Shown here in pieces: positions 5,348 to 51,961 of a DNA stretch of 54,645 nt. A model generated the notes under the pieces. The model worked only from the letters and a program-made list of their open reading frames with translations. It ran no database searches and was not told where the DNA came from. How positions within the stretch are numbered: the stretch's first letter is position 1; each line of letters starts with the position of its first letter. The position numbers and the translations under genes are program-made. Source of the DNA: a virus; the IMG/VR virus record IMGVR_UViG_3300011923_000001, one strand, 5' to 3'.

Positions 5348-6696
5348 AAGACATATTAAAAGACATGCTTATTGTTGATAATTTCGCTGGTGGCGGTGGT
5401 ACTTCAACTGGAATTGAAATGGCACTCGGCCGTCCAGTCGATATAGCAATTAATCATGATCCTAAAGCTTTGGCCATGCATCGTATAAATCATCCCACAG
5501 CCGATCACTATGAAGAATCTGTTTGGGATGTTGACCCTATTGAAATAACGAAGGGAAAGCCTGTAGGTATTGTTTGGCTTAGTCCTGATTGTAAGCACTT
5601 CAGTAAAGCGAAAGGTGGTAAACCAGCAAGCAAAAATATTCGTGGCCTAGCATGGGTAGGGTTGCGTTGGGTTGCATTAAAAAAGCCTATTCTATTTTTT
5701 TTAGAAAATGTCACTGAGTTCCAAACGTGGGGCGATTTAGATGAAAACGGCAGACCATGCCCTAAACGCAAAGGTCGCACATTCAATAGTTTTGTGAATG
5801 CCTTAAAAAGACATGGGTATCATGTTGAATACAGAGAATTAAGGGCCTGTGAATATGGCGCACCTACTATTCGTAAGCGTTTTATCCTTGTCGCTCGTCG
5901 TGATGGGCTACCTATAGTCTGGCCAGAGCCAACACACAAACCACGATCAAATAACCTGGTGCAAAAAGGTATTTTAAAACCAGAGAGAATAGCCGCTGAA
6001 TGTATTGATTGGACAATACCTTGTCAAAGTATTTTTGAGCGCAAAAAACCTTTGGCCAAAGCAACTATGGAAAGAATAGCTGCTGGTATCAATAAGTTTG
6101 TTATCAATAACCCTGATCCATACATTGTGGACGGGAAAGCACCAGTATTAACAGAGTGTGCAAACGCTTCTAATAAACGCTCAATGGCTATAGACGAGCC
6201 TTTACGCACAATTTGCGCTGAAACAAAGGGCGGTCATCACGCAATTATTATTAGCCATTTATCCAAAATGAAAAATAAGTGCATTGGCCAAGATGTTAAT
6301 GAGCCTTTTCACACATTAACGACAGTGAATCAGTTTGCTGAAGTAAGAGCGTTTTTAACTGCTTATTATGGTGGTGAAAAAGACGGTAATTCGGTAAAAG
6401 AGCCTTTACGCACAATCCCGACTAAAGATCGTTTTGGATTGGTCACTGTAAAGTGCCAGCAATACCAAATCATAGACATTGGATTTCGTATGCTGAAGCC
6501 AAAAGAGCTTTATAAAGCTCAAGGTTTTCCAGATCACTATATTTTTACACATGGCATTGATCATTTAGGTAAGAAAATAAAACTGACTCAAACTGAACAG
6601 TCGCGCATGGTTGGAAACTCGGTTCCTCCTGACTTAGCTGAAGCAATTGTAAGAGCCAATGTTGAAGTGATAGCTAAACAGGGGATGGCCGCATGA
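5344..6696 (+). CDS. DNA (cytosine-5) methyltransferase
   Basis: Motif I DNFAGGGG, motif IV SPDCKHFS, motif VI ENV (FFLENVTEF), motif X GNSVPP. Start set at the ATG at 5344. Confidence 0.85.
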   Translation: MKDILKDMLIVDNFAGGGGTSTGIEMALGRPVDIAINHDPKALAMHRINHPTADHYEESVWDVDPIEITKGKPVGIVWLSPDCKHFSKAKGGKPASKNIRGLAWVGLRWVALKKPILFFLENVTEFQTWGDLDENGRPCPKRKGRTFNSFVNALKRHGYHVEYRELRACEYGAPTIRKRFILVARRDGLPIVWPEPTHKPRSNNLVQKGILKPERIAAECIDWTIPCQSIFERKKPLAKATMERIAAGINKFVINNPDPYIVDGKAPVLTECANASNKRSMAIDEPLRTICAETKGGHHAIIISHLSKMKNKCIGQDVNEPFHTLTTVNQFAEVRAFLTAYYGGEKDGNSVKEPLRTIPTKDRFGLVTVKCQQYQIIDIGFRMLKPKELYKAQGFPDHYIFTHGIDHLGKKIKLTQTEQSRMVGNSVPPDLAEAIVRANVEVIAKQGMAA

Positions 6697-38200: not shown

Positions 38201-41200
38201 CAATCAGAACATTTAATTGAAAACAACGACCAACAAAAAGCTTTTGATGATGCAATTTCTGATCTTGAGCATAAATATATTAATGAGTGGCTACCACCAT
38301 TATTAAATGCCGCAAGTAGTACAGTTAGTTCTGCTGTCGCTGGTCGTAATAACTTCAACAGTAAACAGGCAAATCAGCGGGGAAATACCTTAGACAGAGC
38401 CATGAAAAATTTTGATGATTCTATTCAGAGATTCACAGGCCAAACGAAATCTAAAGTCCTTGCAGCACGTACACCTGAACAAAAACAACGTGATCTTGAT
38501 GCAGATAATGCAAAAAAGGAACAGGAAAAACTAAAAGAAGTGAAAAAGGCTGAAGAAGCTGCTTTGACTTCAAAACAAGGACAAAAAAGAACACGAGTTA
38601 GCAATGCTGATGTTCCTGACCGATCAAAAGCCATTGAAATGACGATGGAGGAATGGAAGAAAAAATCAAAAGATTATAAATCAACTAATCTTGGTGTCCG
38701 CATGGCTATGGCTTTAAATAAGGAAACTGGTGCAACAGAGCTTAGACCTGTTTGGATCACTGATGAGGAACCTGCAAAAAATAAAACCAATGTTTTAAAT
38801 GTAAATAAGGGCGATAAAATTACAATTCCAAAAACTAAGGATGCTTTAGGGAAGATTCGCCCCTCCGAAACACTAACTGTTTCTGGCCTAGATGGTAATG
38901 ATTTAACCTTGACAACTGAGTCGGGTGCTAGAACCATTGAAAGTGCAAAACTCTTAAAACAACGATATGGCGATAAACTTTCAATATTAAAGAATGACGA
39001 TAGTTCTACATCCAATATTGATGCAGCAGCCAACGAAGCAGCAACTAGCCCAAAAAATAATACACCTGAACCGACTCAGGCACAGATAGAAGCAGGCAAT
39101 TATAAAAAAGGCCACGTAAATATTCAGGGCTTGAATATCTCCATTGAGAACCCGAAAGGTTCTATACGATCAGGACAACGTCCCGATGGCTCAGAATGGT
39201 CACATACCATGAGTGATCATTACGGTTATCTGAAGCGAACTACTGGCGCAGATAACGAGCATATTGATACTTACATTGGTGAACACCCTGACTCAAGTCA
39301 AGTATTCATTGTTGATCAAATCGATCAGCAAACAGGTGATTTTGATGAACATAAAGTCATGCTTGGATTCAATGATTTAGACAGTGCTACGCAAGCATAT
39401 AAATCAAATTTTGATAAAGGCTGGAAGGTTGGCCCTATTCGCGTTATGAACGTGGATGAGTTTAAAAACTGGTTAAAACATGAAGATACAACCCAACCAA
39501 CAGTACAAGATGAACCGAAATCATACGATCAGATTAAATCTAATTTCGATGATCTATCTAAACGTCTGGATGAGGGTGATCCTGATTTAAAAATTGAAGA
39601 TATTCGCTCAACTTATAAAGACATGCTTGAACACTATGACAATATTGTGAATGACCTATCAAGCAAAACAAAACCAACACTTCTGGCTGGTATGAATCCT
39701 TACTATCAGGCGCGATATAAATCAGAAAATAAACCTGTCATTGTAAAGCATCTAGCTGACAATACTTTCATGCGGATGAACTTTCTCGATGGAGGTATGA
39801 TTTCTTACTCTTATGGAGAAAAACGTACACTGCCTGAAATCTTGCGCGATAAATTAAACGATGCAACACAGGAGGATTTGAATAAATTTCTTGACCAGCA
39901 ACGTCAGGAACGTGAACAGTATAAACGTGATATTACGGCCGCAGTTGATGGACTACAAAACCCGCATACATTAGAGGACTTTGCTCGCATTTCCCGTGTA
40001 AACGAACATAAAGATTTTAAGTCATTTTATTCAAGTCTGTCTGAACCACAGCAGGCACTTTATGACGAGCTAAAATCTCAATCTAACAATGAGAAACGGT
40101 TACAGGAAGCTGAACGCAACAAGGCTGCACAAGCTTTAAATAGCACAGCTATAAACGGCAACACCAGCGCCACAATCTACAAAGGCAAGCACACCAAAAA
40201 AGGCCATGATATTTGGACAGTTTCATTAAACGATCGTATCGAAAAGGATGATTTTGATTCTTATCGTAATGAAGCTAAAGCACTTGGCGGCTACTACTCA
40301 TCATATCGAGGTGGTGGATCAATACCCGGCTTTATTTTTGATAGTGAATCTTCCGCGACAGAGTATCTAAATCTTATTTCTGGCCATTCTGCTGAAAATT
40401 CTGATATTGAAACAACGGCCATTACAGATTTTGATCAGGAAGCTGAAGCGGTAGAAACGGATGCCAATAAACAAGCTGAGAAATTAAAAGATAAGGCACA
40501 AAAAATCATAGATCGTGGAAATGAAAGCCTCAATCGTGATCGTAAGGCCAATACCAACAAACGAGCTAGTGAAGCGGCCAGAGCAGAGCAACAGGCCAAT
40601 CATGAAGTGTTTCTCGGCGAAACCATGAACCGTATTGCTGATGGTATTGAATCTGGAACTGTGAAATATCTTTCTCGCTTAAATGCTGTTTCTCAATTGC
40701 GTAATATTGAAAGCCTATTGCAGCAGGCTTCAAATGAACAGCAACGTGAAACAAAAGCCAAAGAACGTGAAGTTAATGCCTCAACAGTGGCTTATTCTGA
40801 ATATCCTCAGTATAAGACTTGGATTGACCATTTTTATGATGTTTTACGTGATTTGCGTGAGATTAAACCAAGTCTAGCCAAACGACTCGATAGTGCTATT
40901 GATGCCCGATTGAAACAGGCTTATGGCGTATGGCTCAATGAAAAGAATAGTTTTGGAACAGAAAATTATTTAAGCGTTACGGCTCGTACGAGTGATGGCC
41001 AACCCGCTATATTCAAGACCAGTATTTCAAAGGCCGAAAAAGTCGCTAAAGCGGCCAATGCCAAGACTGATCAACCAAAATTCGAAGTTTTTAAAATTAA
41101 GAATGGTGAATATGCCGTCATCGATAACCATTCAAGCGCATCTGAGAGTGGTAAGTGGACACCAACACGCAATGACCAGCAATTAAATCTAAGCAATAAC

Positions 41201-44200
41201 TTTGGCCATGAAATCTACAATGCCTTGAAGCAGCACCAGAAGAAATCACCAAAATACTATATCAACTGGCAGATAGAATCCATGCATGAACAAGTATCCC
41301 GCATGGAAAAACTAGGCATTCACGATCCAGCCACGTATAGAGCCATGTTGCGTGAATATATAGGGTTACGCGGTAAAGAGAAAGCTAACGACCCTATTAA
41401 GGCTTTAGAGCGTTCGATGGTTGGGCGATCAAATGATGGTTTAGATTTTTTCCCAACACCACGCAACGTGGTTGAAGAAATGATAGAACTGGCTCAACTT
41501 AGTCCAGATATGAAAGTCTTAGAACCAAGTGCAGGCATGGGGCATATTGCTGACATATTAAAAGACTATGGTATTCAACCTGATGTTATTGAATTATCAG
41601 GTAAGCGCCAAGAACTTTTAGAGTTAAAAGGCCATAATATTGTAGGTAATGACTTCTTACTCTTTAACCCTGAAGAAAGCCAGCATTATGACCGCATCAT
41701 TATGAACCCGCCATTTAGTGATCGCAGGGATGCAGAGCATATCTACCATGCATTTGATCTTTTAAAAGATGATGGTGTGCTTGTGGCCATTGCTGGTGAA
41801 GGTGTGTTTTTTGGAAATGATAAAAAGGCTAAGGAGTTCCAAGCATGGCTAGAACATACCAATGCTGAAATAACACCATTGGATGCTGGTACATTTAACG
41901 ATCCGAGTTTACCAGTAACAACTGGTGTTAAGGCAAGAATTATTAAAGTTTCAAAATCTAATACCTTGAATAAACAATTTAGCCGTCATGAGCCAATAGA
42001 TCAGGGTAATACTGAAGAAAATGTTCGTTCCGCTTTGATGGATCACTTTGGCAAAGGTGTTATAGAAAGTCTTGAGCAAAAAGGCATTTTAACGATCATT
42101 CCAACACATTCAGACAAAAGTGTAGAGGGCTGGTATCAGGATGGTCATGTTACCTTAGTCGCTGATCAACTTACCAGTCAGACAGCCGTACCAACATTAC
42201 TGCATGAGTTGGGAGGACATGGCGGTTTTCAGTCCATGATGAGTGAAACAGCGTATGCCGACATTATGGCAAACGTAGATCGGCTAATAGAAGGGAAAAA
42301 CTTTATAGCTACTGAAGCCAAACGACGAGCTTCAGTAGAATCCGACCCAGCGGTTCAGCGAGATGAGCTACTTCCTTATTTGCTTTCAGTGGCCAGTGAA
42401 ATGCAGGGAGTGACTGGCTCACCATATCTGGCTGTAAATCGTATCATTGCGCGTATCACAAGTGCTGTTAAAGCATGGCTGAAGAACAAGTACGATCTTA
42501 ACTTTAAAATAAGCCCTGATGAAATGATTGCCATTGCTGAACGTATGATTAAGCAAACTGCTAAGTCGAACACCAGTCCTTTAGCTGATCATAATCGTCA
42601 ATATTCATTGAATGAGGCGGCTAACTCTGCTTTCAATAAAGCTATTGATCATGTTGTTAATGGTGTTACTCCAAAGCAATTTATTAGAATGGGTAAAACA
42701 CCTGACGTTTTGAAAATGGTCGGAATGCCCGATGCCCTAATCACGATTCACGGTCGCACGATTGAGAAAGTAATGGGTGAACATTTAGGTGTTGAGCAAG
42801 GTGATCATAGTCATCTACACAATCTAACACCAGAGTCGCTACGACAATTACCGAAACAAATCAACGATCCTATTGCTGTATTCAAATCGGCTGAATCTGC
42901 CACAAAAGATGGATACGTGGTTTTAACTGAATTAAGGGAAATTGATTCCATAAAAGGCAATAGCAAGCCTGTCGTAGCAGCATTGCATGTTAAAGCATCC
43001 AAATCGGATATTGAAATCATTAATGTCGTAAGTGTTTACGGTCGATCAAAGTCGCAGTTACAGCGCGCTTTGAATAATGACTTATTATATTGGAATAAAG
43101 AAAAAGGCCAGCTATTTCTGGATACCGACGGGCTTCAATTGCCACAGGAATTACACACAGAAAATACTGACCTTTCTAAAACCAATATTAAAACAAACGA
43201 GGATTTAGTCAAGTATCGTGAAGTAAACAATCGTAAATTTAGCCGAAAAGCTACGGCTGATCCTGAAAATTTACCTGAATCGACACAACAGAAAATTATA
43301 GATGCCGCGAGTCAATCGTTTTTTGGCCAAGCCGCACTATTAGGGCTTGAAAAGTCAAAAACCATTACGAAACAAACAGGCCGTTTATTTAGCACTATGC
43401 TTCATAAAGCCCTTCAGGATCGTGATTTTAAAGTGACGTTTGATTTAGTACAGGACAAAATCAATCATGTCACCTTTGCTTCTTCTGCTTCAATGGATGT
43501 TGCGCCAGATATTTTGACTCAATTAGAAACTGGATCAGACTATTGGAAGGAAAGTAAGAAGGTGGGCCAACAGTTAGCGCACACTCTCAATTTACGTGAC
43601 AAGCCAGAATTTCAGAAGGATTTAGAAACCGTTGGTGATGTTCTTTTTGAAAATACCTTATCTGAAGAACCAAAAGTTTTTAATGATCAGGAACTACGTG
43701 ACAAAAAACTGACACAAAACCAGATTGATTTATATCATCAAACTAGGGCTGCAATTGATACTTCACTTGACTCATTTGCCAAAACAACGATTTCCAATAT
43801 CTATAAACATTTGGGTGGCAAGTCAGATGACATTTTAGCAATTACAGCAATGGATCTCACTTTGGGTGGCCATGTGAATGAAATTGCTGATCGTATGGCC
43901 AAGATCGTTGAAAATGATCCTGATAAAGCTGAAGCGGCCAAAGTTGCTGAGGAACACATTGAGAAGGTCGTAACACGGCTTGAGCAATTAAAAAACGAAG
44001 GCTATATGCCACTAATGCGCTTTGGTAAGTATTACATGCGTGTTATTGATCCTACGACTAAAGAGGTTGCTTATCGTCAACACTTTGAAAGTGAAGCTGA
44101 ACGAAATTTATTTGTTCGCAACTACAAAGCCCCTGAAGGCTACAAAGTTGAATCATCCCAAATCAACGAGCTTGAACATAAACTCTTTCAGGGTGTAAGT

Positions 44201-46048
44201 CCTGAAACTGTGGCTTTATTTGCTAAAGAAGCGGGGTTGCCAGTAGGTGATGCTGAAGCGGCATATATCAAACATGCAGTACGTGATAACCATGCACTTA
44301 AACGCCTTCTAAGACGACAAGGGGTACAAGGGTTCAATACCGATACAAAACGTGTTCTGGCTGCATTTGTACTATCTAATGCGCGTTATGCAGCGAATCA
44401 GCTTTACAACCCAGCCATTGACGAATCGATTACTGAAATTAAAGACCCTGCTTATGCTGAAGATGCGATTCGTTTACGTGATTATGCGCTTGATACTCAG
44501 GAAGAAGTGGCGGGCATCAAAAATTTCGCGTTCGTATGGTACATGGGGGCATCGTTTATGTTTGGTGTTGTCAACTTGACGCAGCCATTATTACAAACAT
44601 TGCCTTATCTACTTCAGTATAGTACCGATGCTGGATCAGTACCACGTGCTTTTATACGTGCTGCTAAATCATGGTACGGCAAAGACATTCCAACGAAATA
44701 TCAAGACTTTTATGAACGTGCAAGACGTGAAGGGCATCTTGACCCACAAAACACATGGATGCTTCAGGGGCTTGAGCGTGGTAAATCTGGCTTAGGCGCA
44801 AGTACATGGCAACTAATTAGCCATGCTTCAGGCTTCTTTGCTCAAGCTTCTGAAACGGTCAACCGAAGAACAGCACTATTTGCAGCTTTGGATATTGCTG
44901 AAAACATGGGTAAAGCCAAGCTTGAAAAATTAGGTTTTAAAGATGCCTATGACTTTGCTGTGCGAACAATTCAGGAAACACAGGGCGTTTACAACAAAGG
45001 CAACCGTCCACGTGTATCTCGTGGCAATGTCGGTTCACTACTCATGATGTATAAGCAATTCATGATTTCATACGTTGAACAGATGGTTCGTATGCAACGG
45101 AGTGGTTTGTGGGGCGGTGAAGATGATGAGTTTAAAAAACGCATGGCTGCTCTGGTTGGCTTTGGTATATCCAGAACAATGCTTGTCGCTCTAGGTGTGC
45201 TTTGGTCATTTGCTGGGGCTACAGGCTTGCCATTTGTACGTGATTTACTTGATGTGATCGAAACTGCGGGTGGCATGATTGGAAAACCTGTAAATACTGA
45301 ACGCGAAGCACAAATTGCTTTGACTAAAGCTTTAGGTGATACGTTGGGTACGGCCGCAACGACCATTCTTTTAGATGGGCCAGTAAATTTAAATCCTGTG
45401 ATCGATGTTAAAGGGCGCATGGGTATGGGCGATTTAATCCCAGCAACCGCCTATTTTAGCCCAATGACCAGTGAATGGCAGAAATCAAAAGAGTTATCTG
45501 GTTTGGGCGGTGCAATTGGTGGACTTATGGAAAAGGCCAGTTCAGCAATGGATTACGCACAAATTGGAGCTTACGGCCAAGCTGCTACTCAACTCGCGCC
45601 AAAAGCATTTACAAGTCTTGGTCAAGGTGCTGTGGCTGCTGCAACTGGCGATTATCGTAATATGCAGACTGGCGTTAAAACCAATGATGCCACCATCCTT
45701 GATGGCTTCATTAAAATGCTGGATGCACAGCCTTCAGGTATTGCAAAAGAAGGCCGCATACGTGGCCTAGAAATGAAGGATAAAGCCGCGCTTCAGTATG
45801 TTAATAAACGAGCCAAAGAGGACTATAACAAAGTTCTGGAAAGCGGTGATCAGAAACAAATCATTGAGTTCCGTAAAGCTATTGAAGTCTACAATGCAAC
45901 CGATCCGCGCTATCCAATCACGATGAACCTTAAACGTGCTGAAACCAACTTTGCTAAATCTAAACAGAACTGGCAAGAGAAGCGTAAGACAACGAAAGGG
46001 TTAGACTGGATGGATGACTACAATCCATATTTGGAGACTGAGCAATGA
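35228..46048 (+). CDS. Giant polyvalent virion/ejection protein (3606 aa, GTG start)
   Basis: One uninterrupted ORF containing P/Q-rich linkers, a pyrophosphatase-like domain, a SAM-dependent N6-adenine MTase domain (VLEPSAGMG, NPPF), a PLMRFG motif and C-terminal hydrophobic helices. Confidence 0.8.
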   Translation: MNPEQFFNSFLNDAVDKGLKPNQVFNERERIWRENIQPALVKKGANETDLTNAMKRWQEKTNAPMMQLGFLPKDGQNSRGAAKDLRAERAVRESVKTGSKLPLIKETALSTADTLANAFGQGANNMVGSIARFANDIGENEKGTTLDRIANSSDSTAKAFGKSASSQQTAMQSGEMGKAAQLGIGAVQSIPAMALPMGAAAGTTKVLGGIAKTAAPYFGLGVGTIAGHTQNYGEVRQGATQNLQQDFPTWQELQGNPLYEQKFNENLNAGLSVDQSRQKAHADTLDTLSESAADKYGTAMTALDIIAPSGAVLGSGILKKIPNSTIGNIIAGGKVNQKLVQQELKAAERTGISKYLPDVSLEANKAALKMVGKQGLEEGLQGAIGEYGSQSASANIGGKPIDWKQVGQSFIDEGIVGAIMGGGMQSASGHTPTGQAKAIAKELRNQTNALRKDEALARNNLSEAMQFNNPERVAEAENDLQLIQERAKNLHDGYTQFGIDTPYFVQRLIPKDQEPGTNQDQQTQLQQAQPEDLPEPAPTQEPIAEQAPAQPSFKPAGYDMADTTNLVVKAVSDGVLSLDQAEKIQRDPVAGAVFGHAINGDKASAQQTIMDAISNGVIDLPQAESLSKDIDVFANLHSQMPESEVAAPLEPVKPTLTSIVNNHVKEQVNAGMNQPELNDFGYTPQGLSPAQPDPNLSTFDSIEPQFIQQEQSGIIDSNAPQEQNIEAPVDYNQLQPDQQQFETGNQAPENQNPTAPTEQGDNPLFSGQPPDLNQSFAEKFRDAHLNHPELKPKLINDEIALGRNRAEVLKEVNSLVADMPKQPKAKTENIPISEPEIKSFSNSAKASEYIRKNNLSETHEPISNDGLFEVRPKAEPEKLEIEQNSPKNGTTDLNQGDMGRASDNKPFANQQSASLALNKKGLTKTHFVHKTEGGYVLRPTSENEPQDIAKQSTTFPLDKVKQAFSHAHLSPANTARSMKESFDRFIQSEVDQSEHLIENNDQQKAFDDAISDLEHKYINEWLPPLLNAASSTVSSAVAGRNNFNSKQANQRGNTLDRAMKNFDDSIQRFTGQTKSKVLAARTPEQKQRDLDADNAKKEQEKLKEVKKAEEAALTSKQGQKRTRVSNADVPDRSKAIEMTMEEWKKKSKDYKSTNLGVRMAMALNKETGATELRPVWITDEEPAKNKTNVLNVNKGDKITIPKTKDALGKIRPSETLTVSGLDGNDLTLTTESGARTIESAKLLKQRYGDKLSILKNDDSSTSNIDAAANEAATSPKNNTPEPTQAQIEAGNYKKGHVNIQGLNISIENPKGSIRSGQRPDGSEWSHTMSDHYGYLKRTTGADNEHIDTYIGEHPDSSQVFIVDQIDQQTGDFDEHKVMLGFNDLDSATQAYKSNFDKGWKVGPIRVMNVDEFKNWLKHEDTTQPTVQDEPKSYDQIKSNFDDLSKRLDEGDPDLKIEDIRSTYKDMLEHYDNIVNDLSSKTKPTLLAGMNPYYQARYKSENKPVIVKHLADNTFMRMNFLDGGMISYSYGEKRTLPEILRDKLNDATQEDLNKFLDQQRQEREQYKRDITAAVDGLQNPHTLEDFARISRVNEHKDFKSFYSSLSEPQQALYDELKSQSNNEKRLQEAERNKAAQALNSTAINGNTSATIYKGKHTKKGHDIWTVSLNDRIEKDDFDSYRNEAKALGGYYSSYRGGGSIPGFIFDSESSATEYLNLISGHSAENSDIETTAITDFDQEAEAVETDANKQAEKLKDKAQKIIDRGNESLNRDRKANTNKRASEAARAEQQANHEVFLGETMNRIADGIESGTVKYLSRLNAVSQLRNIESLLQQASNEQQRETKAKEREVNASTVAYSEYPQYKTWIDHFYDVLRDLREIKPSLAKRLDSAIDARLKQAYGVWLNEKNSFGTENYLSVTARTSDGQPAIFKTSISKAEKVAKAANAKTDQPKFEVFKIKNGEYAVIDNHSSASESGKWTPTRNDQQLNLSNNFGHEIYNALKQHQKKSPKYYINWQIESMHEQVSRMEKLGIHDPATYRAMLREYIGLRGKEKANDPIKALERSMVGRSNDGLDFFPTPRNVVEEMIELAQLSPDMKVLEPSAGMGHIADILKDYGIQPDVIELSGKRQELLELKGHNIVGNDFLLFNPEESQHYDRIIMNPPFSDRRDAEHIYHAFDLLKDDGVLVAIAGEGVFFGNDKKAKEFQAWLEHTNAEITPLDAGTFNDPSLPVTTGVKARIIKVSKSNTLNKQFSRHEPIDQGNTEENVRSALMDHFGKGVIESLEQKGILTIIPTHSDKSVEGWYQDGHVTLVADQLTSQTAVPTLLHELGGHGGFQSMMSETAYADIMANVDRLIEGKNFIATEAKRRASVESDPAVQRDELLPYLLSVASEMQGVTGSPYLAVNRIIARITSAVKAWLKNKYDLNFKISPDEMIAIAERMIKQTAKSNTSPLADHNRQYSLNEAANSAFNKAIDHVVNGVTPKQFIRMGKTPDVLKMVGMPDALITIHGRTIEKVMGEHLGVEQGDHSHLHNLTPESLRQLPKQINDPIAVFKSAESATKDGYVVLTELREIDSIKGNSKPVVAALHVKASKSDIEIINVVSVYGRSKSQLQRALNNDLLYWNKEKGQLFLDTDGLQLPQELHTENTDLSKTNIKTNEDLVKYREVNNRKFSRKATADPENLPESTQQKIIDAASQSFFGQAALLGLEKSKTITKQTGRLFSTMLHKALQDRDFKVTFDLVQDKINHVTFASSASMDVAPDILTQLETGSDYWKESKKVGQQLAHTLNLRDKPEFQKDLETVGDVLFENTLSEEPKVFNDQELRDKKLTQNQIDLYHQTRAAIDTSLDSFAKTTISNIYKHLGGKSDDILAITAMDLTLGGHVNEIADRMAKIVENDPDKAEAAKVAEEHIEKVVTRLEQLKNEGYMPLMRFGKYYMRVIDPTTKEVAYRQHFESEAERNLFVRNYKAPEGYKVESSQINELEHKLFQGVSPETVALFAKEAGLPVGDAEAAYIKHAVRDNHALKRLLRRQGVQGFNTDTKRVLAAFVLSNARYAANQLYNPAIDESITEIKDPAYAEDAIRLRDYALDTQEEVAGIKNFAFVWYMGASFMFGVVNLTQPLLQTLPYLLQYSTDAGSVPRAFIRAAKSWYGKDIPTKYQDFYERARREGHLDPQNTWMLQGLERGKSGLGASTWQLISHASGFFAQASETVNRRTALFAALDIAENMGKAKLEKLGFKDAYDFAVRTIQETQGVYNKGNRPRVSRGNVGSLLMMYKQFMISYVEQMVRMQRSGLWGGEDDEFKKRMAALVGFGISRTMLVALGVLWSFAGATGLPFVRDLLDVIETAGGMIGKPVNTEREAQIALTKALGDTLGTAATTILLDGPVNLNPVIDVKGRMGMGDLIPATAYFSPMTSEWQKSKELSGLGGAIGGLMEKASSAMDYAQIGAYGQAATQLAPKAFTSLGQGAVAAATGDYRNMQTGVKTNDATILDGFIKMLDAQPSGIAKEGRIRGLEMKDKAALQYVNKRAKEDYNKVLESGDQKQIIEFRKAIEVYNATDPRYPITMNLKRAETNFAKSKQNWQEKRKTTKGLDWMDDYNPYLETEQ
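39092..39482 (+). other. Inorganic-pyrophosphatase-like domain of the giant protein
   Basis: Colinear with E. coli PPase blocks as I recall them: IENPKGS, HYGYL / NYGYI, ADNEHIDTYIG / DGDPVDVLV, DFDEHKVM / GEDAKLVA, KGWKVGP / KGKWVKV. Confidence 0.45.
41447..41955 (+). other. N6-adenine DNA methyltransferase domain of the giant protein
   Basis: FFPTP, motif I VLEPSAGMGHI, motif IV IIMNPPF (NPPF at 41705-41716). Confidence 0.75.
42675..43120 (+). other. Possible PBECR-type (barnase/EndoU/RelE-like) nuclease domain of the giant protein
   Basis: Pattern ITIHGRTIEKVMGEH...LRQLPKQINDPIAVFKS...YVVLTEL...VVAALHV resembles polyvalent-protein PBECR modules as I recall them. Confidence 0.25.
44009..44026 (+). 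other. PLxRFG motif (PLMRFG) marking the C-terminal PLxRFG domain
   Basis: Codons cca cta atg cgc ttt ggt. Hydrophobic helices (FAFVWYMGASFMFGVV, LVGFGISRTMLVALGVLWSFAG) follow. Confidence 0.6.
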
Positions 46049-46156: not shown

Positions 46157-46180
46157 ACAGCCCTAATCCTTCAGGGCTGT
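46157..46180. terminator. Bidirectional hairpin between the late operon and umuC
   Basis: acagccct aatccttc agggctgt. It overlaps the umuC stop codon. Confidence 0.55.
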
Positions 46181-47484
46181 ATTTCATTTAAAACCCAGCC
46201 ATCACCTTGAATATCAAAATAATTAGGAGTCTTGTAAGACTGGCGCATCGACCACGCCCGATGATCCATATAGCTTGCCCCAAATCCTAATTTTTTCTTT
46301 CCATATAGCTTATGAATGTCTTCAATCACTTTGACTAAATTGTCAGATTTTTGATCCTGGTCTCTATCTGAAAATAAATCGTGGTTAAATGATGATTTTG
46401 GCTCTAAACCTGTTAATACAACACCGCACTTTTTGAAAGAAACACCTTCTACATATAATTTTTCGATCAGTCTAGCGGCCACACTAATAAGCCTTTGGGG
46501 ATTGTCTGTAGGCTGTTCAAACCCACAAGATAGCCCCTTTTTATAGTAAGGATTATTGGTGTCAAATGGATTCGAGGAAGCGAATACAGTCACAACACCG
46601 CATACTTGCTCACTTTTTAATAGGCGTTTTTGTGCATCATGAGTAAATCTTGTTATGGCTTCTTTTAAATCATTTACATCAGTTATCCGCTTTCCAAACG
46701 ACTTCGATGAAATGATTTGCTTTTGTGGCTCAGGATCAGTTTCAAGATCAATACAAGGCTCTCCATTCAACTCCATAACAGTTCGTTTCAAGACAACACC
46801 GAATAAACGGCCAATCATTTCTGGATTTGCTCTTTTAAGATCACCAGCCGTAACAATACCGAGTTCATTCAAGCGTTTCTTATACTGTCTGCCAACGCCC
46901 CACACTTCCGATACATCTATAATATTATAAAACCCTTCTATAGCGCCTTGATTTGCCAGCTCAATTAAATTGCATACACCATTGAAAACAGGAATTTTCT
47001 TAGCTAAGTGGTTCGCAAATTTACTTTGTGTTTTAGTGTGGCCAAGCCCAACGCAAACAGGTAGTCCAAGCCAACTATCTATTCGATCTTTAACGCTATT
47101 TGCAAACTTTGTCGGCTCATAAACTGAAGTAAAGTCTGTTAAATCAAAAAACGACTCATCTATTGAATACTGTTCAACACTATCGGGCGATAACATATCT
47201 TCAATTAGCTGGTGAAACCGCCTAGACATTTCACCGTAAACCGCATAATTACTTGATAAATAAGTGATATCCAGTTTTTGTTCTTTTATTAATTTTTCGA
47301 GTTCAAAAAATGGCATCCCCATCGGTATTTTTGCCGTTTTAGCTTCTTGCGACCGAGCTATGACGCAGCCGTCATTATTACTCAGCACTACTACAATTTT
47401 ATCATTCAGCTTAGGCTGAAAAAGCCTTTCACAGCTTACATAGCAGTTGTTTATATCAATATGGCCAATGATCTTGCGCATCAT
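46171..47484 (-). CDS. umuC: Y-family translesion DNA polymerase subunit UmuC/RumB-like
   Basis: IDINNCYVSCERLFQPKLNDKIVVVLSNNDGCVIARSQEAK is the canonical UmuC N-terminus. 437 aa. Confidence 0.9.
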   Translation of the reverse strand: MMRKIIGHIDINNCYVSCERLFQPKLNDKIVVVLSNNDGCVIARSQEAKTAKIPMGMPFFELEKLIKEQKLDITYLSSNYAVYGEMSRRFHQLIEDMLSPDSVEQYSIDESFFDLTDFTSVYEPTKFANSVKDRIDSWLGLPVCVGLGHTKTQSKFANHLAKKIPVFNGVCNLIELANQGAIEGFYNIIDVSEVWGVGRQYKKRLNELGIVTAGDLKRANPEMIGRLFGVVLKRTVMELNGEPCIDLETDPEPQKQIISSKSFGKRITDVNDLKEAITRFTHDAQKRLLKSEQVCGVVTVFASSNPFDTNNPYYKKGLSCGFEQPTDNPQRLISVAARLIEKLYVEGVSFKKCGVVLTGLEPKSSFNHDLFSDRDQDQKSDNLVKVIEDIHKLYGKKKLGFGASYMDHRAWSMRQSYKTPNYFDIQGDGWVLNEIQP

Positions 47485-48847: not shown

Positions 48848-49441
48848 CTATTGATTTAATTTAGAAACAGCTTCTTTTAATAAATTAGGGTCTGTAGCGA
48901 AATACTTCTGAGTTGTTGAAATTGAAGAATGCCCCATAAGTTCTTTAATAGAATAAATATCAACATTATTTCTAATTAGTCTGGTTGCAAAAGCACGTCT
49001 ACCACTATGAGAAGTTGCTTCAATATTTGCTTTTGAATAGCAAATCTTTATCATTTTTCTCATTGTGTCTTGCGTAAATGCCCCGCCTTTCTGTGATAAA
49101 AATAAAGGAGCATTCATGTCATCTAACTGTCGGTGATTCATTATGTAATCATATAAATACTGTCTCGCTTCAGCATTCACAAGATAAACTTCACGGAATT
49201 TACTACCTTTGGTGTACTGGGCCAGCAGCCGTATTGTTTCTTTTATTTCATATCTGGCTGGATCAAAAACATCACGAATTGTTAGAGCAGCCATTTCCTT
49301 AGCTCGCAGGCCAAGAAAGTGAGAAAAGTACAAAACGCAGATATTCCGTAGATTATGCCGATCCTTCTCCCAGATCATATCTAATGTATGGGTAAACTCT
49401 GAAACAGATACAAATGGGGCAACCCCTGTTTTTTTAGCCAT
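48848..49441 (-). CDS. Tyrosine recombinase (XerC/D-like; likely multimer resolution)
   Basis: Catalytic residues LGLRAKE (R), HSGRRAFAT (HxxR) and LMGHSSISTTQKY (H, Y). Start set at ATG 49441, preceded by agaggg. Confidence 0.85.
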   Translation of the reverse strand: MAKKTGVAPFVSVSEFTHTLDMIWEKDRHNLRNICVLYFSHFLGLRAKEMAALTIRDVFDPARYEIKETIRLLAQYTKGSKFREVYLVNAEARQYLYDYIMNHRQLDDMNAPLFLSQKGGAFTQDTMRKMIKICYSKANIEATSHSGRRAFATRLIRNNVDIYSIKELMGHSSISTTQKYFATDPNLLKEAVSKLNQ

Positions 49442-49518
49442 ACAAAACCCTCTATTTATATTTTCATGGAATAGGTGATTATCCATGACGTATAATTTTG
49501 AGAGTATTATAAAAACAA

Positions 49519-49550
49519 AAATGTCCGAAAAGATACATTTTCGGACATTT
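49519..49550. promoter_or_regulatory. 13-6-13 perfect inverted repeat: candidate recombinase core site and/or minus-strand terminator
   Basis: aaatgtccgaaaa gataca ttttcggacattt. On the minus strand it is followed by ttttgttttt and a TATAAT-like box. Confidence 0.5.
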
Positions 49551-49691
49551 CTGTTAGAGCTTTGAAACTTCACCTTAGATTACGCTTTTTGCCCACCTAA
49601 CCTATGACCAAAATAGGAGAGCAGGGCAATGATACATCATTAAAAAAATAAATAAAAACACTTCTTGAAAATATAATTATATTTACATTTT

Positions 49692-49721
49692 TTTACATTA
49701 CTTTTATTTTTCAGATTATAT
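49692..49721 (+). promoter_or_regulatory. Candidate promoter (TTTACA-N18-TTATAT) for the non-coding unit
   Basis: Hexamers read by eye in an AT-rich tract, so the false-positive risk is high. Confidence 0.2.
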
Positions 49722-49727
49722 TTTTTA

Positions 49728-49816
49728 TATACTTGCTTCAGTGAAATCTCAAAACCCCTCAGAGGTTTCATTATATTTTAACTCCCTAACTTCAACATGA
49801 GTTAGGGAGTCTTTTT
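49728..49816 (+). ncRNA. Putative short structured RNA: two hairpins ending in an intrinsic terminator
   Basis: Hairpin tgaaatctc/gaggtttca (49742-49770) and hairpin actccctaac/gttagggagt (49781-49810) followed by cttttt. Confidence 0.3.
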
Positions 49817-49818
49817 AA

Positions 49819-49867
49819 CCCATCTGATGAGCTTGTGAAACTCAAGCGAAACCAACATGGTCATGGG
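49819..49867 (+). ncRNA. Hammerhead ribozyme, type I topology (predicted cleavage after C49862)
   Basis: cccau CUGAUGA gcuug-ugaaacu-caagc GAAA cca-aca-ugg UC auggg. All invariant core positions and three helices are present. Confidence 0.6.
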
Positions 49868-50069
49868 ACAGCGCACAGTAATATGAATCGAAAGACATTG
49901 CTAGGACTGCCAACGAATGTGCGCAAGTAGTTGGACGGCATAGCCCGATATTGGACGATCGATTTTCTGTTGAATGATCCAAAAAAGCTGCTATGGGCAT
50001 AACGTAACAGATGACAACTTGGAAAGACAGTAAGCAAAAGGCCAGTCGAAAGATTGGCCTTTTGCTTTT
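49868..50069 (+). ncRNA. ORF-poor, GC-richer RNA segment downstream of the ribozyme, ending at a GNRA-capped terminator
   Basis: No ORF of 60 aa or more, a 7-bp helix gcgcaca/tgtgcgc (49871-49877/49918-49924), a small GAAA-capped hairpin near 49883-49898, and a terminator at 50034-50069. Confidence 0.3.
50034..50069. terminator. Strong bidirectional terminator with a GAAA tetraloop
   Basis: gcaaaaggccagtc GAAA gattggccttttgc followed by tttt. Confidence 0.75.
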
Positions 50070-50295
50070 GTATAAATATTAGAAATCAGGGTGGCTAAGA
50101 TAAATGAATTTGAAATTAAGGAAACAAACAGGTAATTAAATAAATAAATCGTTTGAATATTTATATATTACATTTAAGTAACTATATTTAAAGAATGCGT
50201 TAAAAATATAATTATAATTACCTCTTAATTTATTCAAATTGTTGTTTTTAATTTATCTCTTAAGTATTGCAAATAAAGGGTTTTAAGTAAATATA

Positions 50296-50312
50296 TGGTC
50301 ATTTACCTGACG
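50296..50312 (+). repeat. Isolated iteron-like site (tggtcatttacctgacg)
   Basis: 16 of 17 nt match the iteron core, about 260 bp upstream of the array. Confidence 0.6.
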
Positions 50313-50573: not shown

Positions 50574-50702
50574 TGGTCAATTACCTGACGCTTTATGGTC
50601 AATTACCTGACGCTTTATGGTCAATTACCTGACATTAATTATGGTCAATTACCTGACGCTTTACGGTCAAACACCTGACGCAATATGGTCAATTACCTGA
50701 CG
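50574..50702 (+). repeat. oriV iteron array: six direct repeats of tggtcaattacctgacg (period 22 bp, one 24)
   Basis: Copies start at 50574, 50596, 50618, 50642, 50664 (degenerate) and 50686. Confidence 0.9.
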
Positions 50703-50800: not shown

Positions 50801-51961
50801 ATGTCTAATGATCTTATTAACCAAGATTCCACGATAAAACAAGCAAATAAATTGATTGAATCCGTCTATAGGATGGAAGCCAATGAACAAAAAATCATTT
50901 TGTTGGCCATAAAGCAAGTTTATGAAAAAGAAAAGCGTAAAGAGCCTTTTACAGAACGCACCGAAATCATTATTTCTGGAGCGGAATATGCGCGAGAGTA
51001 TGGCATTTCCAGACAAACTGCATTTGATGTGATCCGAGAGGCTAAAAACACGCTATATGAGCGCTCTTTCGAGTATGACTATCTTAACCCTGAAACAGGG
51101 GAGTCAAAGCCTTTAAGTAGCCGTTGGATCCACGCAAAAGGGGAGACAAAGGCTAAGAGTGAAATTAGTATTTTTTTTGCCCCAGCAGTTATCCCGCTTA
51201 TATATCTGGTACAGAAAGAATTTACCCTATTAGATATATCTGAAATTGGTCGTCTCAAAAGCAAGTACGCTATACGATTGTATGAACTTTTAATGAAGTG
51301 GAGAAATGCGGAATATCAGCCCAAAATGGAATATCAGGATTTACGGAATAAGCTTGGATTGGTAGATGCCGATTATCCTGTTATGGCTGATTTTAAAAAG
51401 CGTGTGATCGATGTAGCAGTTAGTCAAATCAACAAAGGTACAGGTTTCGTTGGATTGAAATATTCAACTTTAAAAAAAGGTGTGAAGATAACTCATTTCG
51501 TATTCAGCTACACCAAGTATGACAATGACACACTCAATATCACCCCAATTAAGCCTCAATCGCACACAGCGAAAGAAAAGCCTAAGATGATAGATGTGAC
51601 ACCAAAAAAGAAAAAAGAAGCAAATACGGCAAAACAGAGCGATTCTAACGACACGTTTGAATTAGTTCCTGTTGATGTAGTCCAGAAAAAAACCGCAAAA
51701 CGACATTATGATTTTGCCATGAGTGAATCACAAGCATATATGTTTGCTCATAAAATGATTAAAAAGATCAAAGAAAAAGATCAAAGATTTATGCATCTGG
51801 AAAAATTGGCGTATGAAGGTGAGCATGAAAATAGCTTTTTAAAGCGCGTGGTAGAGGACTTACTCATTGGAACATTTAAGCCATACGCTGAAGCTTTACG
51901 GACGCTAGGATATAAACACCACAATAATTCAGCAGACGGACAACTGGCAGTTGATGAGTAA
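50801..51961 (+). CDS. rep: Rep_3-family iteron-binding replication initiator
   Basis: IKQANKLIESVYRMEANEQKIILLAIKQV is the Rep_3 N-terminal signature. The iterons lie immediately upstream. Confidence 0.9.
   Translation: MSNDLINQDSTIKQANKLIESVYRMEANEQKIILLAIKQVYEKEKRKEPFTERTEIIISGAEYAREYGISRQTAFDVIREAKNTLYERSFEYDYLNPETGESKPLSSRWIHAKGETKAKSEISIFFAPAVIPLIYLVQKEFTLLDISEIGRLKSKYAIRLYELLMKWRNAEYQPKMEYQDLRNKLGLVDADYPVMADFKKRVIDVAVSQINKGTGFVGLKYSTLKKGVKITHFVFSYTKYDNDTLNITPIKPQSHTAKEKPKMIDVTPKKKKEANTAKQSDSNDTFELVPVDVVQKKTAKRHYDFAMSESQAYMFAHKMIKKIKEKDQRFMHLEKLAYEGEHENSFLKRVVEDLLIGTFKPYAEALRTLGYKHHNNSADGQLAVDE

What the first reader, a model, noticed from the sequence alone, without database searches (positions are those of the whole stretch)
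49819..49867. Complete hammerhead-ribozyme core between the recombinase gene and oriV
The plus strand reads cccau-CUGAUGA-gcuug(ugaaacu)caagc-GAAA-cca(aca)ugg-UC|auggg.
- Every invariant hammerhead position is present: C3 U4 G5 A6 N7 G8 A9 (49824-49830), a G10.1:C11.1-closed 5-bp stem II (49831-49835 / 49843-49847), and G12 A13 A14 (49848-50).
- A15.1:U16.1 plus three more pairs form stem III (49851-54 / 49858-61).
- C17 lies at 49862, and a 5-bp stem I forms at 49819-23 / 49863-67.
- This gives a type I topology, with cleavage predicted between 49862 and 49863.

CTGANGA followed directly by a hairpin, GAAA, a second hairpin ending in UH and closure of stem I is very unlikely by chance in 2 x 55 kb. 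I saw no second such arrangement.

Bacterial and phage hammerheads are known. One placed inside a plasmid-type replication/maintenance control region is unusual. It would produce a 5'-OH RNA starting at AUGGGACAGCG.
Basis: partly seen in the sequence, partly recalled or inferred. Interest (0 to 1): 0.8.

Follow-up and report, generated by a model that had tools for sequence, protein, structure and literature searches.

The report
Hammerhead ribozyme heading a phage RNA
The hammerhead motif is very probably a real self-cleaving ribozyme: it is conserved at the front of a previously undescribed folded RNA that four otherwise unrelated groups of Acinetobacter phages share, and it most likely cuts that RNA free from its transcript.

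Summary
A complete type I hammerhead lies at 49819-49867 (+). It is the only one in the window, and it appeared in 0 of 300 shuffles at the observed stem lengths.

Rfam misses it at its curated threshold: Hammerhead_HH9 scores 25.5 bits against a gathering score of 52. Comparative evidence supports it strongly:
- 17 homologous loci (15 distinct sequences) carry it. They come from Acinetobacter phages, prophages and metagenomes.
- Every core nucleotide is unchanged. Variation falls only at N7, loop II, loop III and one compensatory stem II pair.

That stretch is a structured RNA with a pseudoknot and four covarying helices. It matches no Rfam family. The minus-strand ORF over it is not conserved.

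The hammerhead and this RNA are the only sequence the window shares with a P2-like myovirus and a DpoZ siphovirus. In a sister phage-plasmid, pTG31302, the same slot holds a tRNA-Arg gene.

Best reading: a self-processing RNA gene cassette. The hammerhead trims the 5' leader as RNase P does for a tRNA, leaving a 5'-OH RNA that starts at 49863. It is not part of replication control. The function of the mature RNA is unknown, and cleavage is untested.

The parts
49741..49772 (+). Leader hairpin 1 (GUGAAAUCUC...GAGGUUUCAU). It is probably at or near the 5' end of the primary transcript. Weak promoter-like hexamers lie at 49692-49719 and a TATACT at 49728-49733.
   Evidence: Fold of 49740-50078 and the promoter scan. 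pTG31302 has an equivalent hairpin at the aligned position. The transcription start is inferred, not shown.
49781..49817 (+). Upstream hairpin (12 bp) followed by UCUUUUU. It looks like a terminator and ends 1 nt before the conserved block.
   Evidence: Every homologue has a stable hairpin, of three unrelated sequence types, ending 0-7 nt before ACCCAU. In pTG31302 an analogous hairpin plus TCTTTTTAA lies directly before a tRNA-Arg gene.
49818..49867 (+). Type I hammerhead ribozyme. Invariant A at 49818; stem I 49819-23 / 49863-67; core C3-A9 49824-30; stem II 49831-35 / 49843-47 with loop II 49836-42; G12-A14 49848-50; stem III 49851-54 / 49858-61; C17 at 49862.
   Evidence: It is conserved in 17 of 17 homologous loci, with variation only at N7, loop II, loop III and one compensatory stem II pair.
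49862..49863 (+). Predicted self-cleavage site, GUC|A. The upstream product would end in a 2',3'-cyclic phosphate and the downstream product would carry a 5'-OH.
   Evidence: Inferred from the established hammerhead mechanism applied to the core mapped. Not tested.
49863..50002 (+). Conserved core of the released structured RNA.
- Helix A (pseudoknot): 49871-76 with 49919-24.
- Variable hairpin P2: 49877-49902.
- Helix B: 49910-14 with 49930-34.
- Helix C: 49939-44 with 49990-95.
- Helix D: 49951-55 with 49978-82.
- Conserved unpaired runs: AGGACUG, GAYGG, ACGAUA, CGAU, GAAUGA, AAAAGCY and GGGCAYAA.
   Evidence: blastn hits to seven Acinetobacter phages and alignments. Helix variants are listed. 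In one search, 94.9% of cells are paired, 13 pairs change on both sides, 0 of 500 shuffles reach this, and slid controls pair at most 39%. CM R1 scores 181 bits in the window and finds one copy per locus. No Rfam family matches.
50012..50031 (+). 3' hairpin module UGAC-A-ACU(U)-GGAAAGAC-AGU. Its stem covaries in the homologues.
   Evidence: The same motif ends the RNA in most homologues and recurs 3-5 times per phage RNA cluster, always on the + strand.
50032..50075 (+). Intrinsic terminator (AAGCAAAAGGCCAGUC-GAAA-GAUUGGCCUUUUGCUUUUG). It probably marks the 3' end of the primary transcript.
   Evidence: Folds. Weak sRNA-terminator matches. pTG31302 has a terminator at the equivalent place after its tRNA.

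Best explanation
Positions 49818-50075 are a self-contained RNA gene cassette carried by Acinetobacter phages.

Proposed mechanism:
- Transcription enters from the AT-rich region upstream and reads through a hairpin.
- The type I hammerhead (49819-49867) then folds as it is made and cuts after C49862.
- The leader plus ribozyme is released with a 2',3'-cyclic phosphate.
- The mature RNA starts at A49863 with a 5'-OH. It has a 140-nt pseudoknotted core and a 3' hairpin module, and it ends at or near the terminator at 50032-50075.

The hammerhead therefore does for this RNA what RNase P does for the tRNA-Arg that occupies the same slot in the sister phage-plasmid. It sets a precise 5' end whatever lies upstream, which lets the cassette work after a helicase gene, after an integrase gene, inside a virion-gene RNA cluster, or in a plasmid backbone.

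The mature RNA most probably acts in trans on a host (Acinetobacter) component. Its carriers share no protein-coding gene. Its actual activity is unknown.

Shown: the motif, its conservation, the covarying structure, the linkage of the two parts and their contexts.
Inferred: transcription, cleavage, the ends of the RNA and trans action.
For: - The hammerhead core is complete, unique in the window and unlikely by chance.
- Homology with seven Acinetobacter phages, five IMG/VR contigs, two Acinetobacter genomes and two metagenome contigs begins at the A before stem I. Upstream sequences are unrelated between groups.
- A scan with a pattern taken only from the downstream RNA returned only loci that also carry the hammerhead, so the two are linked in 17 of 17 loci.
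- Hammerhead columns are 94.5% identical and the downstream RNA 65.9%. Hammerhead variation is confined to N7, loop II and loop III (AACAU, GAAA, GCAA, GAGA). In L014 stem II is GCUAG/CUGGC instead of GCUUG/CAAGC, which is one compensatory change plus one wobble change.
- G-U pairs in stem II and in helices A and B fit only a plus-strand RNA.
- The downstream RNA has covariation in all four helices including the pseudoknot, and a P2 insert of 8-38 nt.
- Neither strand is coding: homologues carry stop codons and indels that are not multiples of three.
- blastp of all ORFs shows no protein shared between the window and either Alexa or AbaSI_2, or between those two phages. Only pseudo-ORFs over the RNA match.
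- In pTG31302 (Rep 69% identical, same synteny) the slot holds tRNA-Arg(UCU). It starts right after the same TCTTTTTAA and ends at a terminator.
- In the AbaSI_2 group the RNA lies directly upstream of tRNA-Arg(CCU) on the same strand.
- Perreault et al. 2011 (PMC3088659) report that hundreds of bacterial hammerheads lie near integrase genes in prophages and process long phage transcripts.
Against: - No experiment shows transcription or cleavage.
- The Rfam score is less than half the gathering score.
- Stem I is only 5 bp and I could not identify a loop II / stem I tertiary contact or pseudoknot, so activity at cellular Mg2+ could be low.
- A terminator-like hairpin with a U-run ends 1 nt upstream in the window, so expression needs readthrough.
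- In the minimum-free-energy fold of the full transcript, the 5' strand of stem I pairs with CAGAUG at 50008-13 instead.
- Stems I and III never vary, so they carry no covariation evidence.
- The family is small (15 distinct sequences) and confined to one host genus.
Confidence: 0.75

Rival explanations
1. A regulated (allosteric) hammerhead. In this reading the pseudoknotted RNA next to stem I is a sensor domain, for a ligand or a protein, that switches self-cleavage on or off. That would control the stability of the upstream message or of the RNA itself.
For: - Helix A starts 3 nt after stem I.
- The A-A pair and the CA that flank stem I are invariant.
- The downstream RNA has many conserved unpaired nucleotides and a pseudoknot, as aptamers do.
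- A partly conserved alternative pairing exists between CAUC in the 5' strand of stem I and GAUG near the 3' end of the RNA.
Against: - The hammerhead is transcribed about 50-150 nt before the parts of the RNA that would have to regulate it, and a type I hammerhead can cut as soon as stem I is complete.
- The upstream genes differ in every lineage (helicase, integrase, other RNAs, or none), so no common regulatory target exists.
- From my own knowledge, no natural allosteric hammerhead is known.
Confidence: 0.1
2. The hammerhead-shaped segment is a structural domain of one larger RNA, or a decayed ribozyme, and no longer cleaves. The functional unit would be the uncut RNA of about 215-260 nt.
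For: - The Rfam score is below the gathering threshold.
- No tertiary contact was found.
- Stem I is short.
- Perreault et al. 2011 list hammerhead-like sequences that proved inactive.
Against: Every catalytic nucleotide is unchanged in 15 distinct sequences while the neighbouring RNA has diverged to about 66% identity. The only substitutions are at positions known to tolerate change. That pattern is what selection for catalysis predicts. A purely structural role would not need C3, G5, A6, G8, G12, A13, A14 and C17 all to be kept.
Confidence: 0.1
3. A DNA-level element, such as an attP core, a packaging site or an origin, or a small protein gene, whose sequence happens to contain a hammerhead-like string.
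For: - In Alexa the block lies directly after the integrase gene, where attP sites often lie.
- In the window it lies between a recombinase gene and the iterons.
- The Bhz20 record annotates two small hypothetical proteins over it.
Against: - Compensatory changes preserve pairing. They include G-U pairs that would be C-A mismatches on the other strand or in a DNA cruciform.
- The variable hairpin P2 ranges from 8 to 38 nt.
- Every reading frame is interrupted in several homologues.
- The block also occurs in virulent-type DpoZ phages between a helicase gene and a tRNA gene, and between portal and capsid genes.
Confidence: 0.03

Closest known systems
Type I hammerhead ribozymes (Rfam clan CL00010; best model Hammerhead_HH9 RF02275)
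   Same: Full catalytic core, GUC cleavage triplet, three stems with stem I open, G10.1-C11.1 and A15.1-U16.1. In most homologues stem III is capped by a GNRA loop.
   Different: - It scores 25.5 bits against a gathering score of 52 and matches only model positions 14-59 of 77.
- Stem I is 5 bp and lacks the internal loop that contacts loop II in Schistosoma-type ribozymes.
- A hairpin sits 0-7 nt upstream and a pseudoknot helix starts 3 nt downstream of stem I. Either could replace the usual tertiary contact, but this is untested.
Hammerheads of prophages and phages (Perreault et al. 2011, PMC3088659)
   Same: It is phage-borne, is sometimes next to an integrase gene, lies on the sense strand of long transcripts, and has a presumed role in cutting polycistronic RNA into units.
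   Different: Those examples flank protein-coding genes and are often type II with a pseudoknot. Here a single type I ribozyme is fused in a fixed position to one particular non-coding RNA, and the two move together between unrelated phages.
Phage and plasmid tRNA genes matured by RNase P
   Same: The cassette layout is the same and, in the sister phage-plasmid pTG31302, so is the genomic slot: leader hairpin, TCTTTTTAA, RNA gene, terminator. The 5' leader is removed by an RNA enzyme.
   Different: The enzyme is built into the transcript rather than supplied by the host. The product carries a 5'-OH, not a 5'-phosphate. The RNA is not a tRNA (ARAGORN and the Rfam tRNA model find none in the window).
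HDV-like 'theta' ribozymes next to phage tRNAs, and synthetic ribozyme insulators such as RiboJ (both recalled from my own knowledge, not checked here)
   Same: A small self-cleaving ribozyme is used to give a defined end to a neighbouring functional RNA, whatever the flanking sequence.
   Different: The ribozyme class and the side differ (theta ribozymes trim 3' trailers). RiboJ is engineered. The cargo here is an uncharacterised pseudoknotted RNA.

Membership tests
Hammerhead ribozyme | Invariant core: C3 U4 G5 A6 N7 G8 A9, G12 A13 A14, A15.1-U16.1, and H17 (not G) | tested here: met
   Read directly at 49824-30, 49848-51, 49861 and 49862. It is unchanged in 15 distinct homologues apart from N7, which is U or C.
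Hammerhead ribozyme | Three helices radiating from the core, with stem I open for type I | tested here: met
   The minimum-free-energy fold of the 49-mer gives stems I (5 bp), II (5 bp) and III (4 bp). All 14 pairs counted across the three stems (stem III counted as 3 bp) are 100% paired across the homologues, and stem II shows one compensatory and four wobble changes.
Hammerhead ribozyme | Score at or above the Rfam gathering threshold of a hammerhead covariance model | tested here: not met
   No hit at gathering thresholds. The best match is HH9 at 25.5 bits against 52, E = 4.9e-4 in 601 nt, and 21.8 bits in L013. This is a detection threshold rather than a biochemical criterion. The partial model match reflects the short stem I.
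Hammerhead ribozyme | Tertiary contact between stems I and II (loop-loop contact or pseudoknot) needed for fast cleavage at low Mg2+ | tested here: inconclusive
   No complement to loop II (NGARAYY) was found by eye in the flanks. The candidates are the invariant A-A and CA at the end of stem I, the upstream hairpin, and helix A.
Hammerhead ribozyme | Site-specific, Mg2+-dependent self-cleavage giving 2',3'-cyclic phosphate and 5'-OH ends | not testable with these tools
   This needs in vitro transcription or mapping of 5'-OH ends.
Known Rfam RNA families (for the downstream RNA, 49863-50031) | A covariance-model match to any of the 4227 families | tested here: not met
   Nothing at gathering thresholds in the window or in ten homologous loci. 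At E up to 10 only terminator-driven sRNA matches appear.
Protein-coding small ORF (minus strand, 49842-50000) | An open frame and coding-type conservation in the homologues | tested here: not met
   The corresponding frame has stop codons in 14 of 14 homologues, and the segment lengths differ by numbers that are not multiples of three.

The most novel reading that the evidence does not exclude
The RNA released by the hammerhead (49863 to about 50031) is a new class of structured phage RNA with a demanding function of its own. Candidates are a decoy or inhibitor aimed at an Acinetobacter defence or RNA-processing factor, or a second ribozyme. It would have spread horizontally as a self-processing cassette among unrelated Acinetobacter phages, including phages that carry the DpoZ gene. 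A further speculative extension: it could act on the UGAC-stem-GGAAAGAC hairpins that punctuate the phage RNA clusters.
Probability: 0.5. Interest if true: 0.75.

Novelty: new variant of a known kind. Interest (0 to 1): 0.6.

Why it matters
Phage hammerheads have been known since 2011, but what they are for is still mostly guesswork. Here the ribozyme has a fixed partner. It always precedes the same conserved, pseudoknotted RNA, and in a sister replicon the same slot holds a tRNA gene. That gives a concrete and testable role: 5'-end maturation of a non-tRNA cargo RNA.

It also flags an uncharacterised RNA that four unrelated Acinetobacter phage lineages have each acquired or kept. That marks it as a candidate host-directed or counter-defence factor in phages of a priority pathogen. 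Several of the carrier phages are isolates (Alexa, DMU1, JeffCo, SH-Ab 15497), so genetics is feasible.

The case also shows that gathering-score Rfam annotation misses genuine short-stem hammerheads.

Tried and rejected
- **Rfam.** Both thresholds were run on the window and on the homologous loci. Only a sub-threshold HH9 match and tRNAs appeared, and nothing matched the downstream RNA.
- **Plasmid collection, DNA search.** No homologue of the element was found.
- **Pattern scans.** Six viral, one genome and one metagenome scan were run.
  - Loosening stem II in the pattern added no new viral loci.
  - L005, L010, L011 and L023-L027 were chance hits.
- **CM R1.** It finds one copy per locus and none in pTG31302. 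The other units of the phage RNA clusters are therefore not paralogues.
- **Second hammerhead at the 3' CUGAUGA.** I considered whether the CUGAUGA before the 3' hairpin in L004, L006, L008, L009 and L014 was a second hammerhead. I rejected this because C3 is not conserved (UUGAUGA, AGAUGA, UAGUGA), there is no stem II, and the covarying stem does not fit.
- **RNAalifold's nested alternative.** It pairs GGACAG with CUGCC. I rejected this because it shows no compensatory change, is broken in two sequences, and conflicts with helices A and B, which do covary.
- **Resemblances considered for the recurrent hairpin and the RNA.** I compared them by eye and from memory with the hairpin-ribozyme substrate, CRISPR repeats, CsrA-binding GGA loops, k-turn and sarcin-ricin motifs, the RNase P P4 helix, the glmS ribozyme, T-box elements and the tRNA-Arg anticodon loop. 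None fitted.
- **Partner protein.** I looked for a protein shared by the carrier phages and found none.
- **Literature.** Five searches found no description of this RNA.
- **Alignment limits.** The MAFFT and CM alignments misplace the 3' strand of helix B in the 5-bp group and helix A in Alexa and L004. The pair counts are therefore conservative. The correct registers are listed.

Full report
**1. The observation**

The plus strand at 49819-49867 reads cccau-CUGAUGA-gcuug(ugaaacu)caagc-GAA-Acca(aca)uggU-C|auggg. Every invariant hammerhead position is present. So are the G10.1-C11.1 and A15.1-U16.1 pairs and the classical GUC cleavage triplet. The topology is type I, with stem I open.

- The minimum-free-energy fold of the 49-mer is the three-stem structure, although its energy is unremarkable (z = -0.77).
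- A descriptor scan I wrote finds this one site on the two strands of the window.
  - At the observed stem lengths it occurs in 0 of 300 dinucleotide-preserving shuffles.
  - At much looser settings it occurs in 4 of 300.
- Rfam at gathering thresholds reports nothing for the whole window.
- A permissive scan of 49600-50200 reports Hammerhead_HH9 at exactly these coordinates: 25.5 bits against a gathering score of 52, E = 4.9e-4 for 601 nt, model positions 14-59 of 77.

So the motif is real and improbable by chance, but standard annotation would not call it.

**2. Conservation**

A blastn search of 49600-50300 against deposited phages hit seven Acinetobacter phages at 74-78% identity, in unannotated intergenic DNA. 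The matched part was 49814-50033 only. No plasmid record matched. Nothing else in the last 14.6 kb of the window matched any phage or plasmid at high identity.

Pattern scans added five IMG/VR contigs, two Acinetobacter genome contigs and two metagenome contigs. That gives 17 loci and 15 distinct sequences.

In all of them homology starts at the A before stem I. The sequences upstream are unrelated between groups.

A scan with a pattern taken only from the downstream part returned only loci that also have the hammerhead. The two parts are therefore linked in every case.

- Mean pairwise identity is 94.5% over the hammerhead columns and 65.9% over the rest.
- The hammerhead varies only in these places:
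  - N7 (U or C);
  - four loop II positions (consensus NGARAYY);
  - loop III (AACAU in the window; GAAA, GCAA or GAGA elsewhere, which are GNRA tetraloops on a 3-bp stem);
  - stem II of L014, which is GCUAG/CUGGC instead of GCUUG/CAAGC, one compensatory change and one wobble change.
- A G-C or G-U pair inside loop II (columns 20 and 24) is kept in all sequences.

This is the pattern expected of a ribozyme under selection for catalysis. Stems I and III never vary, so they give no covariation evidence for or against.

**3. What follows the cleavage site**

The conserved block continues to about 50031. It is an RNA, not a gene for a protein.

- The segment lengths differ by numbers that are not multiples of three.

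The block folds into a defined architecture in which every helix covaries.

| Element | Window coordinates | Window pairing | Variants in homologues |
|---|---|---|---|
| Helix A | 49871-76 with 49919-24 | GCGCAC/GUGCGC | GAGCGC/GCGCUC, GCGCAA/UUGCGC, CGCGC/GCGCG |
| Helix B | 49910-14 with 49930-34 | CCAAC/GUUGG | CCAGCC/GGUUGG, CCGAAG/CUUCGG, CUAGU/GCUAG |
| Helix C | 49939-44 with 49990-95 | CAUAGC/GCUAUG | CACGGU/ACCGUG |
| Helix D | 49951-55 with 49978-82 | UUGGA/UCCAA | UUGAC/GUCAA, UGGC/GCCA |
| Hairpin P2 | 49877-49902 | variable hairpin | insert of 8 to 38 nt |

- The 3' strand of helix A lies in the loop of hairpin B, so A and B form an H-type pseudoknot.
- Several unpaired runs are conserved: AGGACUG, GAYGG, ACGAUA, CGAU, GAAUGA, AAAAGCY and GGGCAYAA.

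On the model-guided alignment, 94.9% of cells form standard pairs. Thirteen pairs show changes on both sides. No shuffle out of 500 reaches the observed values, and sliding the partners by 1-3 columns drops pairing to 26-39%. These counts are conservative, because the alignment misplaces one strand of helix B and of helix A in some rows.

G-U pairs fix the strand as plus. No Rfam family matches this RNA at any threshold tried. Five literature searches found no description of it.

The RNA ends in most homologues with a hairpin module, UGAC-N-stem-GGAAAGAC-stem (50012-50031 in the window). In the window an intrinsic terminator follows at 50032-50075.

**4. Context**

The window is a phage-plasmid.
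- It has phage structural genes, including a portal and a capsid gene.
- It has a Y-family polymerase, a ParA-like ATPase and a tyrosine recombinase (48848-49573, minus strand).
- It has a Rep3 initiator (50801-51961, plus strand) preceded by six 22-bp-spaced iterons at 50575-50701.
- Its Rep protein is 69% identical to that of 55-kb A. baumannii plasmids such as pTG31302, which have the same synteny.

In pTG31302 the place of the hammerhead-RNA is taken by a tRNA-Arg(UCU) gene.
- In both replicons the RNA gene starts immediately after the same TCTTTTTAA that follows a leader hairpin.
- In both it ends at an intrinsic terminator.
- The covariance model finds no trace of the hammerhead-RNA in pTG31302.

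The element is therefore cargo in an RNA-gene slot, not part of replication control.

| Carrier | Phage type | Position of the cassette |
|---|---|---|
| Alexa | P2-like myovirus | after the integrase gene |
| SH-Ab 15497, AbaSI_2, DMU1, Bhz20, JeffCo | siphoviruses; AbaSI_2 encodes DpoZ | after a helicase gene, directly before tRNA-Arg(CCU) |
| L007 and L013 (61-66 kb phages and prophages) | P22-like portal | inside an ORF-free RNA cluster of 1-1.4 kb between the portal and capsid genes |

- It is always on the strand of the neighbouring genes.
- An all-ORF blastp found no protein shared between the window and either Alexa or AbaSI_2, or between those two phages. The only matches are pseudo-ORFs lying over the RNA itself.
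- The cassette is thus the one thing these lineages have in common besides their host genus.
- In all 13 distinct upstream contexts a stable hairpin, of three unrelated sequence types, ends 0-7 nt before the hammerhead.

**5. Mechanism**

The best-supported reading is a self-processing RNA gene.
- A transcript that reads through the upstream hairpin folds the hammerhead as it is made.
- It cuts after C49862.
- It releases a mature RNA with a 5'-OH that starts AUGGGACAG.

The ribozyme makes 5'-end formation independent of whatever lies upstream. This explains how the same cassette works in four different genomic settings. It also parallels RNase P processing of the tRNA in the same slot of the sister replicon.

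The upstream hairpin may do one of three things: insulate the ribozyme from upstream sequence, protect the 3' end of the upstream product, or stack on the short stem I. I could not decide between these.

- Stem I is 5 bp.
- No loop II contact was identified.
- In the window the upstream hairpin looks like a terminator.

However, a bona fide tRNA gene sits behind an equivalent hairpin and T-run in pTG31302. The arrangement is therefore evidently compatible with expression of the downstream RNA.

The minimum-free-energy fold of the whole transcript pairs CAUCUG (49822-27) with CAGAUG (50008-13) instead of forming stem I. Only four of these pairs are conserved elsewhere. The competing segment is also made about 150 nt after the ribozyme, so cleavage during transcription should come first.

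What the mature RNA does is not known. It has conserved unpaired nucleotides and a pseudoknot, and it spreads between unrelated phages that share no protein. I therefore favour a trans-acting RNA aimed at a host component.

**6. Rivals**

- **An allosteric hammerhead whose sensor is the downstream RNA.** This is possible but has no common regulatory target and an unfavourable order of transcription.
- **A hammerhead-shaped but inactive domain.** This does not explain why every catalytic base is kept.
- **A DNA site or a small protein gene.** This is contradicted by strand-specific covariation, the variable hairpin and broken reading frames.

**7. Comparison and novelty**

As a hammerhead, this is a new member of a well-known class in a well-known habitat. 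Perreault et al. 2011 describe hundreds of bacterial hammerheads, many of them near prophage integrase genes.

Two things are new.
- The fixed fusion of a type I hammerhead to one particular uncharacterised, pseudoknotted RNA, moving as a cassette.
- The slot equivalence with a tRNA gene, which gives the ribozyme a specific role that can be tested.

I rate it a new variant of a known kind, with moderate to fairly high interest. The downstream RNA is the part most likely to repay experiments.

Noticed in passing
window 50012-50031; L006 109, 303, 485, 716, 994; L007 5354, 5544, 5785, 6003; L013 1462, 1598, 1817; L014 1406, 1630, 1854: A recurrent hairpin module, UGAC-N-(4-5 bp stem)-GGAA(A/U)AGAC-(stem), has a covarying stem but a fixed loop and 5' flank.
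- It occurs 3-5 times per phage RNA cluster at 190-280 nt spacing, always on the plus strand.
- It ends each RNA unit and often lies 1-2 nt before the hammerhead.
- It looks like a punctuation or protein-binding signal.
- It resembles nothing I could name.
   Followed up: partly
L006 60-1540; L007 about 5250-6220; L013 about 1340-2340: ORF-free clusters of about 1-1.4 kb lie between the P22-like portal gene and the capsid gene of 61-66 kb Acinetobacter phages and prophages.
- Each holds several distinct units of about 200 nt, the hammerhead-RNA among them.
- Each ends at intrinsic terminators.
- Only the hammerhead-RNA unit has homologues in deposited phage genomes.
   Followed up: partly
L006 about 1075-1150; L004 about 1325-1412; L013 about 1900-1985; L012 about 2090-2140: tRNA-like RNAs lie downstream of the hammerhead-RNA. 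They have an acceptor stem, a GGUUCGAAUCC T-arm and a 3' CCA. Their anticodon loops are expanded to 10-30 nt and contain a conserved UUCCCUC. Neither ARAGORN nor the Rfam tRNA model calls them.
   Followed up: no
L020 (pTG31302) 3940-4016 compared with window 49818-50075: The sister phage-plasmid carries tRNA-Arg(UCU) in the slot that holds the hammerhead-RNA in the window. In the AbaSI_2 and JeffCo phages the RNA lies directly upstream of tRNA-Arg(CCU). This may point to a functional link between this RNA and rare-codon arginine tRNAs, or it may be coincidence.
   Followed up: partly
window 49514-49555 (-) and 48848-49573 (-): A strong terminator-like hairpin on the minus strand lies inside the first 20 codons of the 241-aa recombinase ORF as listed from its GTG start. 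The pTG31302 homologue is annotated at only 195 aa. The real start codon is probably further downstream, and the hairpin may belong to the intergenic region.
   Followed up: no
window 50575-50701 and 50297-50311: Six iterons (GGTCAATTACCTGAC core, 22-bp spacing) lie upstream of the Rep3 gene, with one outlying copy 265 bp further upstream. The iteron sequence is shared with pTG31302. This is the probable oriV.
   Followed up: yes
window 35228-46048 (+): A single ORF of 3606 aa lies in the phage part of the window, followed by a Y-family (UmuC-like) polymerase gene at 46171-47484 (-). I did not examine the large ORF.
   Followed up: no
L017 (phage vB_AbaS-Bhz20) 391-486 and 506-637: The deposited record annotates two small hypothetical proteins on top of the hammerhead-RNA. 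Given the broken frames in relatives, these are probably false gene calls.
   Followed up: partly
L022 (phage vB_AbaSI_2) 29654-31528 and 33078-34235: The siphovirus AbaSI_2 encodes DpoZ and a dATP/dGTP pyrophosphohydrolase. From my own knowledge, these are hallmarks of phages whose DNA carries 2-aminoadenine in place of adenine. The same RNA cassette would then be transcribed from such modified DNA as well as from ordinary DNA.
   Followed up: no
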